Origin: a virus
Taxonomy: Duplodnaviria; Caudoviricetes
Virus record (IMG/VR): IMGVR_UViG_3300037483_000760
Coordinates: 1,799 to 65,798 of that record
Reading direction: 5' to 3' (one strand)
Length of the DNA stretch: 64,000 bases
The translations under genes and the position numbers were made by a program. This document shows, piece after piece, positions 14,264 through 21,103 of the stretch. The notes beneath the pieces were generated by a model. The model worked only from the letters and a program-made list of their open reading frames with translations, made no database searches and was not told the origin of the DNA. The stretch's first letter is position 1. The number at the start of each line of letters is the position of its first letter.

Positions 14264-14653
14264 TCAGTTGTCGCGCATGACCGCGCCGACCGCGCGGTCT
14301 TCCATGACGCGATAGAGTTTTTCGTCGTTGCCGTAGAGGATTTCTCCGGCGTACTTGGTGAACATCACGCGCTCGCCGGGTTTCGGTTTTTGCCCTTCGT
14401 ACTTGCGGGTGCGGTCGCCGTTCCAGGTAAAGGCATCGTCGCCCATGGCGATCAGCACGCCCGTGATCGCGGCGGCGTCGTGGGTTTCCTTGCTTTCGTC
14501 GGTGAATTGAATCCCGCCCGCGCTCTTGGTCGGTGCGCGGTCTGTCAACACGATAATGCGGTCACCCGTCGCCACCCATCCGGATTCGTTTTTTCCGTTC
14601 CATTCCGCCGGCTCGTATTGCGCATAGAAGGTCTTGATCAGTCGCGGTTTCAT
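14264..14653 (-). CDS. GroES/Cpn10-like co-chaperonin
   Basis: GDRIIV...KSAGGI...TGVLIAMG...KPGERVMFTKYAGE...YRVMEDRAVGAV follows the Cpn10 pattern. Confidence 0.8.
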   Translation of the reverse strand: MKPRLIKTFYAQYEPAEWNGKNESGWVATGDRIIVLTDRAPTKSAGGIQFTDESKETHDAAAITGVLIAMGDDAFTWNGDRTRKYEGQKPKPGERVMFTKYAGEILYGNDEKLYRVMEDRAVGAVMRDN

Positions 14654-14952
14654 TCGTTCTCCGTTTCGGTTTGCTGCCGGTCTTCGCCGATTTCGTAAAA
14701 GGCCGCGATGTGATCGAACTGCAAGGTCGCTATTTCTTCGGTGACCTTGATCCGCCATCGCGCCTCGTGTTCGCGTTCCGGCGCCAAGGGCCCGGCTTGC
14801 CACTCTCGTTGAATCTCGTCGAGAACGCGCGCGCGGTAGTCCTTCAGGTATTGCAGGAAAACCGCGCTGACCGGGTTATGCCGCCAGGACTGGAAGTCCC
14901 GCTGCGTTATTCCCTTCACCTTGGGGTCCTGCTTGTTGCTGTTGTTCTCCAC
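14650..14952 (-). CDS. Hypothetical protein
   Basis: About 100 aa. Overlaps the portal 3' end and is coupled to the GroES-like gene; start uncertain. Confidence 0.5.
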   Translation of the reverse strand: MENNSNKQDPKVKGITQRDFQSWRHNPVSAVFLQYLKDYRARVLDEIQREWQAGPLAPEREHEARWRIKVTEEIATLQFDHIAAFYEIGEDRQQTETENE

Positions 14953-17017
14953 GCGGCAATCCTTCGATGTCCTGTTTGAGTATTTCGAACTGCTGATCGA
15001 CGAAGGCCATGGCGCGTTCGCCCGCTTCCTTGTTGGCCTTGGCGATGTTGAGCAATGCCGACGCCAGGTCTTTCACGGCCGCCGCCCGCGTCTTGATGGA
15101 TTCGTTGACGAGTTGCGCTTGCATCACGACGAGCTGTGGTGACGGCCCCGACTGTGGCGGTGCGAACAGCTTGTCGATGTCGTCGACATTGGCGGCGGCA
15201 AACACCCGCTTGCGGATTTCCATGCCGTCGCATGCCGGATCGTTCTGGTAGCCTTGCAGGAACTGCGCGCGCGCGAGTTTCTGCATGTCCGACACCATGG
15301 CGGGATCGGAGATGGGAGCGACGCCGGAGCCCAACTCATAATCGCGCTGCGTGATGACGCGCCATTCCCCGTTGGCGCGGTATTCCATCGTCCTTTCGCC
15401 GTAGACGCGATTGAGCCGATAGAGCTTGTCGTATTCGCTCTTGAGCGCGCGATGGATGCGCTTGTAGATCGCGGTGAAAACTTTCAAGCCCTGCTCGATC
15501 AGCGCAAGCAGCGTCGTGGGCTGGATGGTCTGGGCGGCGGCCTCGCCCATCAGAACGTCCTTGACCGATGCGATTTCCTTGCCGGCGTCGATCAACATGC
15601 CGAGCAATTGGAACAACACAACGGAGGGCCCCGGCTGTGGCAGGTCGACAATGGCGTCGCGGATGGCGGCGCCCGGGGCATTCACCACCTTGTACTCGCC
15701 CGGCTTAAAGCGGACGGCGCCGGAATGCATCGACAGCCCGCGCCCGATGAACCCGCCACCGACCACCTGCCGATGACCGGCGTCGATCAGCATGTTGATC
15801 GTGGTGTTGGCGGCGGCATTGATCGGCCGCAGCAACTGGCCGAAGCCGATGCCATAAATGCCGCCGTCCGGATTCGGCAGAAAATCGAACTTGGTGTAGT
15901 AGTGAACCGGCTTTATTTTGGCGATTTTGCCTTGCGGGTCGACCATGACGCCTTCGGCGTCAAAACGCGCGACGATACGAACGACTTTCGCTGTCGCCTT
16001 GTGCACGGTGACAACATACGGCTCGGCATAGCCGTCGTCGTCCAAATCCCAGCGGCGGTGCTGTTCGAGAAATTCATGTGGGGCGTCGTCATCGCCTTGT
16101 CCGTCCGGCGAGGTGCCGTAGCCTGCCTCGTTTTCGAGGAAGCAGCCGGCGTTTTCCATTTCTTGAATTTCGATGGGATAGAAGCGGACGATTTCAGTGA
16201 TGCGTGGCGCGCGTTCAATCGACTTGGCGTGGTAATTAATCGCGACGCTTTGCGCCGGGGCCATGACCGAGACATTACGCTGGTCGCTCGGGTCGAAATA
16301 GGTTTTACGGAACACGCACCCGACGACCGGCAGGATGTGCAGCAGCGTATCGGTCTCGCATTCCCACTCACTCATTTCTTCGAGCAACTGGTAGGACATA
16401 TGCGAGCCGATGGCGTCGGCGCGGCGCTGTTTGGCGAACGGCGGCGCGCGCCAGACCGGTTGTGGACCTTGCGGAGTGAGATTGATCGCGGGCGACCCGT
16501 CCGGCGCCATGACCGGTTCGCCGTCGTCTTTCCCGACCACGACGCCCTTGACCACGTTGCGCCCGGCGATGATCGCCGGATAGGCGCGCGCCGCGAATTG
16601 CATCGCCGCCGTGGTCATCAGCGGATAGACGACGTTGGAGGCGTTCGGCCACGGATAGGATTTCTGTTCCGTGATCTGCATTGCGAGCTTGATGGCCTCC
16701 TCGCTTTGCGTCATCCAATCCGAACGGCTGGTTTCGTCGATCTCGTATTCCTTGACGACGCGCTGGCCGATCTGGCCCAAAGTCTCTTCGTCCAGGTCTT
16801 CGGCAATATTGGTTTTGTCGATCCAGGCGAGTAGCTTCTTATGGCGCTCGCTGTTCTTGTCCTGCTCCCTTTGATCGTCGCCGGGCTCTATCGACGCGGC
16901 CGCTTCTTCGCCCATCTCCATAGGCACACCGTCCGACATCGTGTCGGGTCCGGCATCCATCGGCGGCAATGGTGCCGCTGTCAGGTCGGAAGCCTGTGCG
17001 CTATCGATAAAGGACAT
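14876..17017 (-). CDS. Portal protein
   Basis: 713 aa with KSYPWPNASNV, RKTYFD, DGGIYGIGFG and a helical C-terminal barrel. Expected position. Confidence 0.9.
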   Translation of the reverse strand: MSFIDSAQASDLTAAPLPPMDAGPDTMSDGVPMEMGEEAAASIEPGDDQREQDKNSERHKKLLAWIDKTNIAEDLDEETLGQIGQRVVKEYEIDETSRSDWMTQSEEAIKLAMQITEQKSYPWPNASNVVYPLMTTAAMQFAARAYPAIIAGRNVVKGVVVGKDDGEPVMAPDGSPAINLTPQGPQPVWRAPPFAKQRRADAIGSHMSYQLLEEMSEWECETDTLLHILPVVGCVFRKTYFDPSDQRNVSVMAPAQSVAINYHAKSIERAPRITEIVRFYPIEIQEMENAGCFLENEAGYGTSPDGQGDDDAPHEFLEQHRRWDLDDDGYAEPYVVTVHKATAKVVRIVARFDAEGVMVDPQGKIAKIKPVHYYTKFDFLPNPDGGIYGIGFGQLLRPINAAANTTINMLIDAGHRQVVGGGFIGRGLSMHSGAVRFKPGEYKVVNAPGAAIRDAIVDLPQPGPSVVLFQLLGMLIDAGKEIASVKDVLMGEAAAQTIQPTTLLALIEQGLKVFTAIYKRIHRALKSEYDKLYRLNRVYGERTMEYRANGEWRVITQRDYELGSGVAPISDPAMVSDMQKLARAQFLQGYQNDPACDGMEIRKRVFAAANVDDIDKLFAPPQSGPSPQLVVMQAQLVNESIKTRAAAVKDLASALLNIAKANKEAGERAMAFVDQQFEILKQDIEGLPRGEQQQQAGPQGEGNNAAGLPVLAA

Positions 17018-17028
17018 GCGGAATCCAA

Positions 17029-17367
17029 TCAGCCGAGCTTCAACCCGATCAACGTGCTCACCGCGTATCTATCGTTCGCGATGCGATGCGTTTGCATGGA
17101 ATCGGCCATGGTGATGCGCCACAAGTCGACGTCGGGTTTTCCACCCATGAATTTGATGGCCGCCGGTTTTTTCTTCTCGATCAAGGCGAGCACCTGATCG
17201 CACCAAGACTCGACCGCGGCTGAGGACCTGAGAAACAGGGCGGGCGGAGCATCGTCGGCCTCGTTCTTTGTGCCGCCCGAGCACACCCAAGCTTCCTCAT
17301 CGGACTTCATCGCATCATCGACCGGACACGCGTCCGCGATCTTGGCAAGGGCTTCCTTGAGGGTCAT
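17029..17367 (-). CDS. Hypothetical protein
   Basis: 112-aa ORF coupled in the operon between TerL and portal. Confidence 0.55.
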   Translation of the reverse strand: MTLKEALAKIADACPVDDAMKSDEEAWVCSGGTKNEADDAPPALFLRSSAAVESWCDQVLALIEKKKPAAIKFMGGKPDVDLWRITMADSMQTHRIANDRYAVSTLIGLKLG

Positions 17368-17606
17368 GTCTGCTTCTGCCGCGACGGCGTGATATGCACC
17401 ATCGGTTTGGTCGGCGTGAATGTCTCGCGATAGAACTGCTTGCCGTTTTTCTCGCCGCTATGAGAAACCACGTAGCCGTTCGCGATCTTTCGGATGCTCA
17501 TGCTCACACGCTCATCCATGGTGCCCGCCGTGGCCAGCATCGGCGGTCTCGTCATCCCGCGATGCTTGCCGTTCGATTTGCCGGCGCTGCGTTTTTCCAT
17601 GGTCAA
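17364..17606 (-). CDS. Hypothetical protein
   Basis: 80-aa basic ORF coupled by ATGA overlap. Confidence 0.55.
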   Translation of the reverse strand: MTMEKRSAGKSNGKHRGMTRPPMLATAGTMDERVSMSIRKIANGYVVSHSGEKNGKQFYRETFTPTKPMVHITPSRQKQT

Positions 17607-17803
17607 TACATCCTGGCGGTGTAGTTCATCGCCATCTTGCGTTTGGCGCCGGACTGACCGTTTCCCGCCGAGCCGGGCTTGGTGCGAGTGTCGCTCGCAG
17701 CCGCGCCGGATAACTCAGGCATGTCCTCGCCCATGGCGATGCGCTTGTGCAACGGGATCATATCGCGGTCGGCCTTGGGCATAGTGTCGGAATTCATTTT
17801 CAT
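17603..17803 (-). CDS. Hypothetical protein
   Basis: ATG 17803 preceded by GGGGA; coupled to the downstream ORF. Confidence 0.45.
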   Translation of the reverse strand: MKMNSDTMPKADRDMIPLHKRIAMGEDMPELSGAAASDTRTKPGSAGNGQSGAKRKMAMNYTARMY

Positions 17804-17840
17804 GGCGTCGTCCCCGTCTTCTGCGGTGCGTTTCTGCCGC

Positions 17841-18134
17841 TCAACTCGGTTCCGCTTTGGTGTTGTCGTCTGAAAGCTTTTCTTTGACAATTTCGTAATG
17901 CAAAAACGTCACGGCTGAAACAAGCCCGTGACCGGTTGGTTCATCCGGTGCTGACACCCATGCGGTGAATGTCGCGTTCCCCCGATCAACGAACGCATAC
18001 GCGAATGCCCTGATCTTTCCCTCTCGCGCCAGCGCTACAAGTTCTTCCAACCTGCCGACAACAGTTTCGTCCGCGCCTTTGTTTGTCACATTGGCGGCGA
18101 CAAGGGCTCCTGGCATTGCCAATACGTCAGCCAT
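17841..18134 (-). CDS. Hypothetical protein
   Basis: 97 aa; GGAG RBS upstream. Confidence 0.55.
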   Translation of the reverse strand: MADVLAMPGALVAANVTNKGADETVVGRLEELVALAREGKIRAFAYAFVDRGNATFTAWVSAPDEPTGHGLVSAVTFLHYEIVKEKLSDDNTKAEPS

Positions 18135-18184
18135 TGATTTCTACGGCTCCGCCGTTGGTGTTGTCGTCGGGTGGCCAATGGTCA

Positions 18185-18469
18185 TCAGCGCCTCTGCTTT
18201 ACCCGATATGCTGCGAGGCGCTTCGCGCGGCCCTTGACTAAGAAAAACGCTAGAAAAATCTCGTTAAGAGCAAAATCACAATCTAAGCAGACCGCCACCT
18301 TGCGATGGTCATTCGCACAACACGACCATTGATGCACCGCGCGGGCGCCACACCCGGCACACGCCACACCGTGCTTCATCTCATCGATAGTGTATGGCCG
18401 CTTTCTGCCAAGCGTCTTCGCCAATTTTTTTGCCTTCGCCGCGCAGGACCTTAGCGCGTTACCCGACAA
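18185..18469 (-). CDS. Small Cys-rich (CxxC..C..CxxC) putative zinc-binding protein
   Basis: CAGC...WSCCAND...CLDC motifs. Confidence 0.5.
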   Translation of the reverse strand: MSGNALRSCAAKAKKLAKTLGRKRPYTIDEMKHGVACAGCGARAVHQWSCCANDHRKVAVCLDCDFALNEIFLAFFLVKGRAKRLAAYRVKQRR

Positions 18470-18665
18470 GCCTCAGGTGACTTTCACCAAGCCGTTCTTT
18501 TTCGAGCTTGGCGCGTTTCACGTCCAGCGCCGCGAGTTCTTCGGTCAATGCGGCAGCCCGGCGCAGCTCTTTGGCCGCGCATTCACGTGCGATTTGAAGC
18601 AATTGCCCAACGATCATTTGCTTGCGCCACGGTTCGGCGCCTTCTTCAAGGCGTGTGTCGTGCAT
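18459..18665 (-). CDS. Hypothetical coiled-coil protein
   Basis: 68 aa, right after the TerL stop. Confidence 0.45.
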   Translation of the reverse strand: MHDTRLEEGAEPWRKQMIVGQLLQIARECAAKELRRAAALTEELAALDVKRAKLEKERLGESHLRLVG

Positions 18666-18669
18666 TAGA

Positions 18670-20580
18670 TCAATACCCCGTCGTTCCGTCGCGCGTCGTA
18701 TCGTTGTCCCATCGGTCTTCCGGCTCTTGCATGGCGACCGAGCGCGTCACGGCGATCTGCGAACCGGAAAGTGCGATCTGCCCAAGCGCGCGCACGAGAT
18801 GATCGTTCTCGCCTTCGACCAGCCGCATGTTCTCGTCGCGGCAGAACTGGTGATATTCCGAGACCAGCGTTTTCAGGTTGTTGAAAATCTTGACCTGACT
18901 ACCTTCGACGCGCTGCTTGATGGCCGCGACCGCCGGCTCGATCTCGTTTTCGATCAGGAACAGATTGAGGTTCAAGTCGCATAGCTTGTCGACCAGCGCC
19001 TGACCATCCGCCTTCGAGCGCCCGCGCGCCTGCCGCGCGATCAAACCCGGAATCCAACTGCCGCGCTCGCGCACCGCGTCGGCATGAATTGCCGGTGCTC
19101 CCATCGGGGCCGCATATTCGGCGAAGATCACCAGGTCGTTTGTCTCGGGATCGAACGCGCCCCACAGTCCGGCGAACCGCCGGGTGTCACAATCGATGGC
19201 ATAGACCCTGTTCCAATGCCGGGGGATATCGAAGGGCTCGACGAACAGGGTGTCGGGTGCGGGCAATTCAGCCATTCCTTGATTGAGCGCCAATTCGGTC
19301 ACCGCCCACACCATGGCGTCGAGGCGGTTCGGGCTCCTGCCGTCCGCCGTGCCGTCCGGCCCGAACGAACACAATTCATCCTCAAGATCGGGAAACCCGC
19401 CGACGTGCTTGACGCGGCCCTGCTCGTACAGCGCCGCCACCGGTTCGGCGCGCAGCCACTTACCCCGGGATGCGGTTACTTCCTTGTAGGCGATCTTCGG
19501 GTCCACGGTGCGGATGACATGCTCGACCATCGCCCCGCCGAAATTGCGTTCTCCTACCATGCGGTCGGCTTCGATGTCGCGATAGACATCGACCGCCATT
19601 TGTCCCCATTGCGCCGGCGAAGCGCGCAGCGTCGCGTCGCGCAGGATATACACCGTGCCGTCGTAGCCGCGACCGGCCGCCACGATACCGACCGGGCACG
19701 CCTCATCGTTGCCCGCCGTGCCGGATGGATCGATCGCCACCACGACCCGCGCCAGTGGCGGACATTCCTTAACGAGCGCGGTTTCGAGCATGGCGCGCGT
19801 CCACAACGCACCCTCGACTTCCTCCAGCAACTCTCCTTCGAGTTCCTGCCGTCCGAGCCGAGTGCCCTTATATTTGTTGACGATGGTGCGCAGAAAAGCC
19901 GGTGCTAGGTTGACCGCGTTTTCCGTCGTCGTGCCGCGCGTGATCACGGTATCGGGCCGCGCGATGATTTCCTTGAGCAGGCTGATCGGCTTCGGGGTCG
20001 TGGTGATAACCTGCCTCGGGCGCATCCCGAGCCGCAAGCCAAACTGCAACATATCGAAGGCTTCGCGCGCGAACTTCCAGGCCGCCAGTTCGTCACACCA
20101 TGCCGCGTCGTGCTGCGGCCCGCGCAGGCGTTCCGGTTCCTCCGCTGAATAAAGCGTGGCGATGGCGCCGTTCGGCCAGGTCAGTTGCCGTTGCGAGGGC
20201 TGATACAACGGCCGGAACCAGCGCGGGGCAATCGCCATGATCCCGCTTTCACCCTCGACCATGACCTTGCGGGCGTCCGCCGCCGTCGGCGCCACCAATG
20301 CGACGCGCAGGGCGCCGCAGTTCTCCACCTGGTCCCGCACCCATTCCGCACCGGTGCGGGTCTTGCCGAAGCCGCGGCCGGCGAGAATCAGCCACGTCGT
20401 CCAATCGCCTTCCGGGGCGCGCTGATTGGGTCGCGCCCAAAACAGCCACTCGTATTCGAGTTCTTCCGCTTCTCGTTCCGACAGGTCGCGCAGGACTTGC
20501 GCGCGCTCAGGCGCCGGCAGGCTCGCGAGTCGCTCGGCTAGCGATTTGTTCGATGCGTCCGGCAATGCGGGTGTAAGCAT
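18670..20580 (-). CDS. terL: Terminase large subunit with an extra C-terminal nuclease-like domain
   Basis: Walker A GRGFGKT, Walker B AAWCDE, and nuclease motifs VAIDPS, GERNFGG and RLDAMVWA, followed by about 200 additional residues. Confidence 0.95.
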   Translation of the reverse strand: MLTPALPDASNKSLAERLASLPAPERAQVLRDLSEREAEELEYEWLFWARPNQRAPEGDWTTWLILAGRGFGKTRTGAEWVRDQVENCGALRVALVAPTAADARKVMVEGESGIMAIAPRWFRPLYQPSQRQLTWPNGAIATLYSAEEPERLRGPQHDAAWCDELAAWKFAREAFDMLQFGLRLGMRPRQVITTTPKPISLLKEIIARPDTVITRGTTTENAVNLAPAFLRTIVNKYKGTRLGRQELEGELLEEVEGALWTRAMLETALVKECPPLARVVVAIDPSGTAGNDEACPVGIVAAGRGYDGTVYILRDATLRASPAQWGQMAVDVYRDIEADRMVGERNFGGAMVEHVIRTVDPKIAYKEVTASRGKWLRAEPVAALYEQGRVKHVGGFPDLEDELCSFGPDGTADGRSPNRLDAMVWAVTELALNQGMAELPAPDTLFVEPFDIPRHWNRVYAIDCDTRRFAGLWGAFDPETNDLVIFAEYAAPMGAPAIHADAVRERGSWIPGLIARQARGRSKADGQALVDKLCDLNLNLFLIENEIEPAVAAIKQRVEGSQVKIFNNLKTLVSEYHQFCRDENMRLVEGENDHLVRALGQIALSGSQIAVTRSVAMQEPEDRWDNDTTRDGTTGY

Positions 20581-21103
20581 TCTTCACGCTTGCGATCTCT
20601 TCGCCGTCGCCGCTGCCTTGACCGACATTGATCTGATTGAACATGGCGATGGTGTCCGGCTCGATCAGACCGTCCAGCTTGCAGAGGAGTTCGATGGCGC
20701 TCGTTTTCGAATGCAGCTTGACGCGGTCGTTGCCGTCTTTGTCGGTGTAGAGTTCGGCGACTGCGGCGCGGTCGTCATCCGTCCATTGCGACAGCGGCTT
20801 CAACTGCCGGCCGATCTCCTTGCCGTCATCGTCCTTCACGATCTCGAACAGATCGGGCAGCCGTGCCATGGCGAGCGCCATGAGTTCTTGTCTCAGCACG
20901 CGGCGCTGCCAGCCGATGTCGACTTCGTCGTGGTGGCGAAGTTCGCGAATGCGCTGGAGCACCCGGGGCCGTTTCTCGATCCGCGCCGCATTATGGGCAT
21001 TCGGATAGCCGGCATGCACGCAAGCCGCCCGTGACGGCACCAGCTTGGCGCGGGCCTGTGCGTAAAGCTCCTCACGAGTATCGGTGAGTGGGGTTCCGGT
21101 CAT
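20507..21103 (-). CDS. terS: Terminase small subunit
   Basis: N-terminal HTH (EELYAQ...AACVHAGY...AARIEKRPRV) and KLHSKTSAIELL. Overlaps the terL start. Confidence 0.85.
   Translation of the reverse strand: MTGTPLTDTREELYAQARAKLVPSRAACVHAGYPNAHNAARIEKRPRVLQRIRELRHHDEVDIGWQRRVLRQELMALAMARLPDLFEIVKDDDGKEIGRQLKPLSQWTDDDRAAVAELYTDKDGNDRVKLHSKTSAIELLCKLDGLIEPDTIAMFNQINVGQGSGDGEEIASVKNAYTRIAGRIEQIASRATREPAGA

What the first reader, a model, noticed from the sequence alone, without database searches (positions are those of the whole stretch)
18670..19275. Terminase large subunit carries a second, apparently degenerate nuclease domain from another terminase lineage
Seen in sequence: TerL has a complete ATPase and a complete RNase H-like nuclease (VAIDPS, GERNFGG, RLDAMVWA) ending near nt 19300. 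It then continues in frame for about 200 aa with VEPFDIPRHWNRVYAIDC...GLWGAFD...LVIFAEY...WIPG...AVAAIKQRVEGSQVKIFNNL...EYHQFCRD...ENDHLVRAL. Established knowledge: this follows the order of motifs in P22-type terminase nuclease domains (VEPF.IP..W, IDFG, W.A.D, WIP, GI..M..R, LKVF..L, EF..Y.R, DH..DA.RY). Inference: the final catalytic Asp is replaced by Arg and the middle acidic motif is missing, so the extra domain is probably inactive. It may be a relic of module exchange or serve as a portal-docking or regulatory domain. I know of no described TerL with tandem nuclease domains.
Basis: partly seen in the sequence, partly recalled or inferred. Interest (0 to 1): 0.78.

Follow-up and report, generated by a model that had tools for sequence, protein, structure and literature searches.

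The report
Terminase with a dead, portal-matched second nuclease
This phage's DNA-packaging enzyme is complete but carries an extra, catalytically dead copy of the nuclease domain from a different terminase lineage, and this domain probably attaches a borrowed packaging motor to the phage's own capsid entrance (portal).

Summary
The 636-aa TerL (18670..20580, minus strand) has an intact ATPase and an intact nuclease. It then carries a second RNase H-like terminase nuclease fold whose best structural match is the phage P22 TerL nuclease (TM about 0.8). This domain has lost two of its three catalytic acids (D463 kept, A515, R597). It is not an internal duplication, an intein or an assembly artefact.

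The dead domain belongs to an old, well-supported family. Members are fused to at least three unrelated TerL types or encoded as a separate roughly 195-aa gene just downstream of TerL. It is under strong purifying selection, and its last 25 residues are the most conserved part of the protein.

Its C-terminal tail motif, R-x-x-(V/T/I)-T-G-Y, is shared with active TerLs of the donor lineage. In the loci sampled, this tail goes almost exclusively with one subfamily of SU10-like portal, whichever ATPase is present. A second, unrelated dead-nuclease extension ("type B") repeats the pattern with its own tail and portal subfamily.

Best reading (about 0.6): a pseudo-nuclease adaptor that docks a foreign TerL onto the native portal. 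Binding was not tested. I found no description in the literature. Unchecked notes from this scan report similar extra TerL domains in other genomes.

The parts
19783..20391 (-). TerL ATPase domain (residues 64-266), Walker A GRGFGKT
   Evidence: Pfam Terminase_6N, E 1.5e-29. G68 and K73 are nearly invariant in alignment A2.
19297..19737 (-). TerL nuclease domain 1 (residues 282-428), catalytically intact: D284, E344, D421
   Evidence: Pfam Terminase_6C, E 8e-17. D284 and D421 are invariant and E344 nearly invariant in A2.
19246..19296 (-). Linker (residues 429-445), including the conserved 'DTLFVEP' lead-in that active donor-lineage TerLs carry between ATPase and nuclease
   Evidence: Alignments. 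pLDDT dips at residues about 431-440 of the full-length model.
18745..19245 (-). Second nuclease fold, catalytically dead (residues 446-612): D463 kept, A515 and R597 replace the other two catalytic Asp
   Evidence: No similarity to nuclease 1 (E 0.55).
18673..18744 (-). Disordered C-terminal tail (residues 613-636) ending in TRDGTTGY, an instance of the family motif R-x-x-(V/T/I)-T-G-Y-COOH
   Evidence: pLDDT <50 for residues 613-636. Tail residue profile. Lowest dN of the whole protein in a relative pair.
14876..17017 (-). Portal protein, 713 aa, SU10-like subfamily: the proposed docking partner
   Evidence: PHROG 1216, E 4e-18. Pfam SU10_portal 27.8 bits, just under the cut-off. 36-58% identical to the portals next to TGY-tailed TerLs and dead domains.
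20507..21103 (-). Small terminase candidate, 198 aa
   Evidence: PHROG 51 and 11494, and Pfam Terminase_2 (weak).
17029..18665 (-). Six small ORFs of unknown function between TerL and portal
   Evidence: Only two of them are shared with the nearest relatives.

Best explanation
The C-terminal 200 residues are a pseudo-nuclease. The domain descends from the nuclease domain of the TerL that originally served this phage's SU10-like portal. It has lost catalysis but kept its fold and its flexible C-terminal tail, R-x-x-(V/T/I)-T-G-Y. The catalytic part of the enzyme (ATPase plus nuclease 1) comes from an unrelated TerL clade whose other members serve other portal types, mostly in siphoviruses. The dead domain most likely acts as an adaptor. 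Its tail, and perhaps its body, dock on the portal, while the imported ATPase and nuclease translocate and cut the DNA. Shown here: homology, fold, loss of catalytic residues, purifying selection, family-wide conservation, fused and split forms, and co-variation of tail and portal. Inferred, not shown: physical binding to the portal, and how stand-alone forms hold on to their TerL.
For: (1) Fold and homology are established.
(2) Two of the three catalytic acids are lost, while nuclease 1 is intact.
(3) In a tree of 148 domains, 44 dead domains form one side of a branch with SH-aLRT 98. Their partners are the window's Terminase_6 clade, Terminase_3 TerLs (P0159, L013) and others, and some are stand-alone genes of about 195 aa.
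(4) In the closest relative (72% identity) the domain is a separate overlapping ORF with its own Shine-Dalgarno sequence.
(5) For the L127/L128 pair, dN is 0.083 in the ATPase, 0.094 in nuclease 1, 0.119 in the dead domain and 0.018 in the last 25 aa. dS is saturated, so dN/dS in the dead domain is <=0.08.
(6) The tail motif is identical in 37 dead domains and 23 active TerLs.
(7) Among deduplicated loci with at least 3 kb of downstream DNA, 15 of 16 TGY-tailed genes sit beside a window-type portal, against 1 of 45 with other tails (Fisher p 4e-12, not corrected for phylogeny). The one exception has an IS21 element inserted downstream.
(8) Short TerLs of the same ATPase clade that sit beside HK97-type or Phage_portal_3 portals have no dead domain. 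They carry short, variable tails instead.
(9) There is an independent replicate. The 'type B' extension has lost all three catalytic residues but keeps the (K/R)PLY tail of its active relatives. Its portal (L007) is 46-52% identical to the portal of those relatives (L064) and only about 22% identical to the window's.
[quoted passage not shown] 2013 on T4).
Against: TerL and portal genes are neighbours and are inherited together, so part of the tail-portal association is shared descent. The informative cases are the roughly eight independent loci with a foreign ATPase. Stand-alone forms need an unexplained non-covalent link to TerLs of different families. The domain arrangement in the full-length model is uncertain (pTM 0.52). 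A conserved Arg or Lys at the former third-Asp position hints at a constraint beyond simple scaffolding.
Confidence: 0.6

Rival explanations
1. The dead domain is a regulatory or DNA-handling module. It could grip DNA, pair with nuclease 1 to restrain or time the headful or terminal cut, or stabilise the pentamer, with no specific role in portal docking.
For: The fold and many surface motifs are conserved. An Arg or Lys regularly replaces the third Asp, and the first two Asp are often kept (triads DDR and DDK are the commonest), which suggests a remodelled but still constrained former active site. Stand-alone forms fit an accessory subunit.
Against: This does not explain why the tail is the most conserved part and is shared with active TerLs. 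It also does not explain why the domain lineage follows the portal lineage rather than the ATPase/nuclease lineage, in two independent origins.
Confidence: 0.2
2. The domain is a functionless in-frame relic of the recombination that replaced the original TerL.
For: The architecture is what illegitimate recombination inside a TerL gene would leave. The catalytic residues are gone. Variable small ORFs lie between TerL and portal only in these loci.
Against: dN/dS is <=0.08 and dN is close to that of the catalytic domains. Dead domains form an old clade with about 30-45% pairwise identity and open frames throughout. The domain also exists as a separate gene. The fold is predicted with confidence.
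Confidence: 0.05
3. The domain is a decoy or shield against bacterial sensors that recognise terminase folds, such as Avs-type STAND proteins.
For: Such sensors bind TerL; the Avs3-terminase complex 8dgc appears among the fold matches. An extra terminase-like domain could mask or mimic the recognised surface.
Against: There is no specific evidence for this. It explains neither the conserved C-terminal tail nor the link to portal type.
Confidence: 0.05
4. The apparent fusion is an assembly or frameshift artefact joining two genes.
For: The closest relative encodes the two parts as separate overlapping ORFs. Reads for this record could not be inspected.
Against: Fused forms occur in at least ten independent assemblies from different sources and with different sequences. 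The frame here is open with no ambiguity. The record is a complete genome with direct terminal repeats.
Confidence: 0.03

Closest known systems
Phage P22 gp2 large terminase nuclease domain (PDB 4dkw)
   Same: RNase H-like terminase nuclease fold. It is the best structural match (Foldseek E 5e-12, TM about 0.8) and the only sequence hit among solved structures (E 0.017).
   Different: P22 gp2 is the only nuclease domain of its TerL and is catalytically active. The domain here is a second domain, lacks two of the three catalytic acids, and is only 17% identical over the structural alignment.
Active TerLs of podophages with SU10-like portals (for example P0188/L005 and P0147/L004; more distantly Stenotrophomonas phage StenR_269 and EBPR podovirus 1)
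   Same: The nuclease domain is 30-43% identical to the dead domain. The metagenomic TGY-tailed members share the R-x-x-(V/T/I)-T-G-Y tail and sit beside the same head module: portal, GroES-like gene and capsid.
   Different: They are ordinary two-domain enzymes of 480-530 aa with an intact D/D/D triad, and the portal gene follows them directly. I did not check the tail of StenR_269 or EBPR podovirus 1.
Short TerLs of the same ATPase clade (for example Xanthobacter prophage P0043, Agrobacterium P0070, Brevundimonas vB_BpoS and Dinoroseobacter vB_DshS phages)
   Same: 45-62% identical to residues 1-435 of this protein (Caulobacter phage Sansa 41%), with the same Terminase_6N/6C domains.
   Different: They end 8-16 residues after nuclease 1 with variable short tails. 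The two whose neighbourhoods I read (P0043, P0070) sit beside HK97-type or Phage_portal_3 portals and have no dead domain.
C-terminal portal-docking segments of TerL (T4 gp17 C-terminal domain; D6E 'C-terminal arm')
   Same: [quoted passage not shown] 2013 as cited there).
   Different: In those enzymes the docking element belongs to the active nuclease domain. Here it sits on a separate, inactive copy, which in relatives can even be a separate polypeptide.

Membership tests
Terminase large-subunit nuclease domain (RNase H-like; Pfam Terminase_6C, P22 gp2-like) | RNase H-like fold with the terminase-specific topology | tested here: met
   AF2 model with pLDDT 88. The top 30 or so Foldseek matches are all terminase nucleases, with 4dkw first.
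Terminase large-subunit nuclease domain (RNase H-like; Pfam Terminase_6C, P22 gp2-like) | Three catalytic acidic residues for two-metal catalysis (D on strand 1; D/E in the middle motif; D in the DHxxDAxRY motif) | tested here: not met
   D463, A515, R597. 87 of 148 aligned relatives have D/D/D.
Terminase large-subunit nuclease domain (RNase H-like; Pfam Terminase_6C, P22 gp2-like) | Significant match to the curated Pfam model | tested here: not met
   The C-terminal 206 aa alone give no Terminase_6C or Terminase_3C hit at E<=1. Homology is shown by direct HMMER and BLAST to TerLs instead.
Canonical two-domain TerL (residues 1-430) | ASCE ATPase with Walker A/B, plus a nuclease with an intact triad | tested here: met
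   Terminase_6N and Terminase_6C are above their cut-offs. K73, D284, E344 and D421 are conserved.
Intein-containing TerL | Hint or LAGLIDADG domains interrupting the host protein | tested here: not met
   No such Pfam hits in this protein. Relatives with inteins are clearly distinct.
Internal tandem duplication of the protein's own nuclease domain | The second domain is most similar to the first | tested here: not met
   Nuclease 1 against the dead domain gives BLASTP E 0.55. The dead domain matches foreign TerLs at E down to 5e-36.
Dead TGY-tailed TerL nuclease family (defined here) | Placement in the dead clade, loss of the third Asp (usually to R/K), and a C-terminal x-T-G-Y | tested here: met
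   The window's domain lies inside the 44-member clade (SH-aLRT 98). It has R597 and the tail ...TTGY.
Portal-docking element of TerL | Physical binding to the portal clip or procapsid | not testable with these tools
Only comparative evidence is available.

The most novel reading that the evidence does not exclude
Catalytically dead terminase nuclease domains are mobile portal adaptors. They stay with a head module and let it recruit unrelated packaging ATPase-nucleases, either fused or in trans, and this solution has evolved at least two or three times. If so, portal specificity lies in the nuclease-domain body plus a short C-terminal tail motif. That would also be natural evidence on which end of TerL faces the portal.
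Probability: 0.5. Interest if true: 0.85.

Novelty: new variant of a known kind. Interest (0 to 1): 0.74.

Why it matters
Two questions in phage assembly remain open: how TerL recognises its portal, and which TerL domain faces the portal. Phage mosaicism also raises the question of how a packaging motor can be exchanged between unrelated head types. These natural chimeras suggest an answer: keep a dead copy of the old nuclease domain, with its tail, as the interface. They also provide a ready set of constructs for testing this (fused, split, tail motif, and two independent lineages). For annotation, stand-alone "hypothetical" genes of about 195 aa next to TerL, and TerLs of 620-670 aa, can now be recognised for what they are.

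Tried and rejected
- **Locus searches that failed:** The search for related loci with the broad alignment A1 failed for lack of a conserved stretch. A5 on genome contigs found no relative among one genome per species. That scan used two narrow patterns, so it says little about prophages.
- **First homologue search:** the word-based search restricted to the C-terminal region found only 6 proteins and missed the fused relatives. The exhaustive HMMER search corrected this.
- **Pfam and PHROGs on the isolated domain:** nothing meaningful.
- **Literature:** searches for tandem, second or pseudo-nuclease terminases found nothing.
- **Readings rejected:** internal duplication, intein and assembly chimera (independent assemblies).
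- **Proteins with the domain at the N-terminus:** these turned out to be N-terminally truncated TerL fragments carrying inteins.
- **A conserved partner among the small ORFs between TerL and portal:** none found.

Full report
**What is there**

The window is almost all of a complete 65,798-bp uncultured virus genome with direct terminal repeats. On the minus strand, 18670..20580 is one uninterrupted 636-aa ORF.

Pfam places Terminase_6N at residues 64-266 and Terminase_6C at 282-428, both above their cut-offs. The Walker A lysine and the nuclease triad D284/E344/D421 are invariant or nearly so among relatives. The enzyme is therefore complete by residue about 430.

The ORF then runs on for 206 more residues. 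This stretch has no Pfam or PHROG match on its own.

**The extra part is a second terminase nuclease fold from another lineage**

- A sequence search of solved structures returns one hit, the P22 TerL nuclease domain 4dkw (E 0.017, aligned over about 155 residues).
- Ordinary 477-532-aa TerLs align their own nuclease domains to residues 440-605 at 29-42% identity, with pairwise E from 3e-23 to 5e-36.
- An exhaustive HMMER search of 1.84 billion representative proteins gives 762 hits at E<=1e-3 and 380 at E<=1e-10.
- An AlphaFold2 model built on 23 sequences is confident (pLDDT 88, pTM 0.83). Its best Foldseek match is 4dkw (E 5e-12, TM 0.78/0.83, rmsd 2.4 A), followed by the G20c, D6E, SPP1, RB49/T4 and HK97 terminase nucleases.
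- The domain shows no similarity to nuclease 1 of the same protein (E 0.55), so it is not an internal duplication. There are no intein signatures.

**It is catalytically dead**

I aligned the domain with about 170 relatives. The active enzymes carry G-x-D-V-G, I-D-P-A and D-H-L-M-D-A-x-R-Y. The window has A-I-D-C-D (D463 kept), L-I-A-R-Q (A515) and D-H-L-V-R-A-L (R597).

**It is a conserved family, not a one-off**

- *Length classes.* Relatives of residues 1-435 number in the thousands. Most are 420-460 aa, but 18 of the best 120 are 625-668 aa without inteins.
- *Type A.* Ten of those 18 carry the same kind of dead domain, ending in ...TGY.
- *Type B.* Eight of the 18 carry a different extension, discussed below.
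- *Split form.* In the closest relative (72% identity, seen in two samples) the TerL stops in the linker. The domain is then a separate 194-aa ORF in the +1 frame, overlapping the TerL stop codon. A GAGGA sequence lies 8 nt upstream of its TTG start.
- *Other architectures.* The HMMER hits include many stand-alone proteins of about 190-210 aa and fusions to other TerL families. P0159 and L013 are Terminase_3 + Terminase_3C + dead domain. L037 has a different Terminase_6 enzyme in front of its dead domain.
- *Domain tree.* In a maximum-likelihood tree of 148 domains, 44 dead domains form one side of a branch with SH-aLRT 98. They include the window's domain and all of these architectures except L037, which was not among the rows. 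One further dead domain (P0115) nests among active ones, which points to a separate, younger origin.
- *ATPase-clade tree.* On the tree of the ATPase clade, type A fusions are scattered. At least 5 changes are forced by well-supported branches, so joining and splitting have recurred.
- *Deposited phage genomes.* None of 50,697 deposited phage genomes matches 80% or more of the protein. There, relatives of the catalytic part match only residues 1-438 and are mostly siphoviruses.

**It is under selection, most of all at the tail**

For two type A genes that are 86% identical (L127 and L128), Nei-Gojobori dN values are:

| Region | dN |
|---|---|
| ATPase | 0.083 |
| Nuclease 1 | 0.094 |
| Dead domain | 0.119 |
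| Last 25 residues | 0.018 |

Synonymous sites are saturated (dS > 1.5), so dN/dS in the dead domain is at most about 0.08. In the full-length model the tail (residues 613-636) is disordered.

The last seven positions read R-(S/N/D)-x-(V/T/I)-T-G-Y. T, G and Y are essentially invariant in 37 dead domains, and equally so in 23 active TerLs of the donor lineage.

**The domain follows the portal, not the motor**

The window's portal (14876..17017) is SU10-like. Its identity to other portals is as follows:

| Portal beside | Identity to the window's portal |
|---|---|
| Fused type A TerLs | 58% |
| A Terminase_3 TerL plus a stand-alone dead domain (L009) | 50% |
| The split form | about 50% |
| Active TGY-tailed TerLs (L004, L005) | 36-39% |
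| Short TerLs of the window's ATPase clade (HK97-type or Phage_portal_3 portals) | no match |

I classified about 120 loci from IMG/VR and metagenomes, then deduplicated them and kept those with at least 3 kb of downstream DNA. Of 16 genes ending in TGY, 15 have a window-type portal. Of 45 with other tails (GWMG, DFA, AGY and others), 1 does (Fisher p 4e-12, not corrected for phylogeny). The single TGY exception has an IS21 transposon inserted downstream.

The rest of the head module travels with the portal as well: a GroES-like gene, a 320-aa protein, a 204-aa protein and the capsid protein. Short TerLs of the ATPase clade instead end in short, variable tails.

**An independent replicate**

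The type B extension is homologous to the nuclease domain of yet another TerL group. Relative to those active enzymes it has lost all three catalytic residues, but it keeps their (K/R)-P-L-Y tail.

The portal beside a type B TerL (L007) is 46-52% identical to the portal beside an active PLY-tailed TerL (L064). It is only about 22% identical to the window-type portals.

**Interpretation**

[quoted passage not shown] 2013 for T4). Taken together with that, the simplest reading has three steps:

1. A podophage head module kept the interface part of its original TerL.
2. The catalytic parts were replaced by a foreign TerL.
3. The kept part survives as a pseudo-nuclease adaptor, either fused or as a separate subunit.

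What remains inferred is the physical contact with the portal and, for stand-alone forms, the contact with TerL. In split forms the conserved 'ExDIL' lead-in stays on the TerL, which suggests a possible trans interaction, but I did not test this.

A regulatory or DNA-holding role cannot be excluded and could coexist with docking. The regular Arg/Lys at the former third-Asp position, often with the first two Asp retained, suggests that the old metal site has been remodelled rather than simply decayed.

**Comparison with what is known**

I found no paper describing a TerL with tandem nuclease domains or a stand-alone dead terminase nuclease. Unchecked notes from this scan report extra degenerate nuclease-like or ATPase domains on TerLs in other genomes. 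I did not test those. They suggest the phenomenon is wider than this family.

Noticed in passing
window 17029-18665; also L001, L002, L007, L009, L013, L127, L128: Every locus read with a dead domain has 0.7-4 kb of small, poorly conserved ORFs between the terminase region and the portal. In loci with an active TGY-tailed TerL the portal gene follows within a few bases. This may be a recombination scar or a hot spot for inserted genes.
   Followed up: partly
window 14264-14803 (-): A GroES/Cpn10-like gene (Pfam E 3e-8) lies directly after the portal. It is conserved in the related head modules (L001, L003, L009, L013, L011 and others).
   Followed up: partly
L002:9260-9400 and L003: In the closest relative the TerL and the dead domain are separate ORFs overlapping by 8 nt in the +1 frame, with a Shine-Dalgarno-like GAGGA upstream. 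It could be a true split, or a frameshift site that yields a fused product.
   Followed up: partly
L018, L021, L028, L030, L031, L033, L034, L035, L053 (IMG/VR loci): Many active TerLs of the donor lineage are interrupted between the ATPase and nuclease parts by 0.3-5.5 kb of DNA, perhaps introns or homing-endonuclease cassettes. Others carry inteins inserted exactly at the D-H-L-M-D motif (P0004, P0143, P0169).
   Followed up: no
L040:820-3887 and L008:3935-5035: Transposable elements lie directly downstream of dead-domain genes: an IS21 istA/istB pair plus a resolvase in L040, and an IS605 OrfB/TnpB-like gene in L008.
   Followed up: partly
Proteins P0009-P0127 (short TerLs of the window's ATPase clade): Their 8-16-residue C-terminal tails fall into a few recurring types, for example ...GSTYTLANV, ...QFDPNKWxxAFS and ...ASPDIF. 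These may each match a portal type.
   Followed up: no
L003:4916-8304: The portal gene of this relative appears to be broken into two or more overlapping frames (called as 389 aa plus 635 aa). This could be a frameshift or an assembly error.
   Followed up: no
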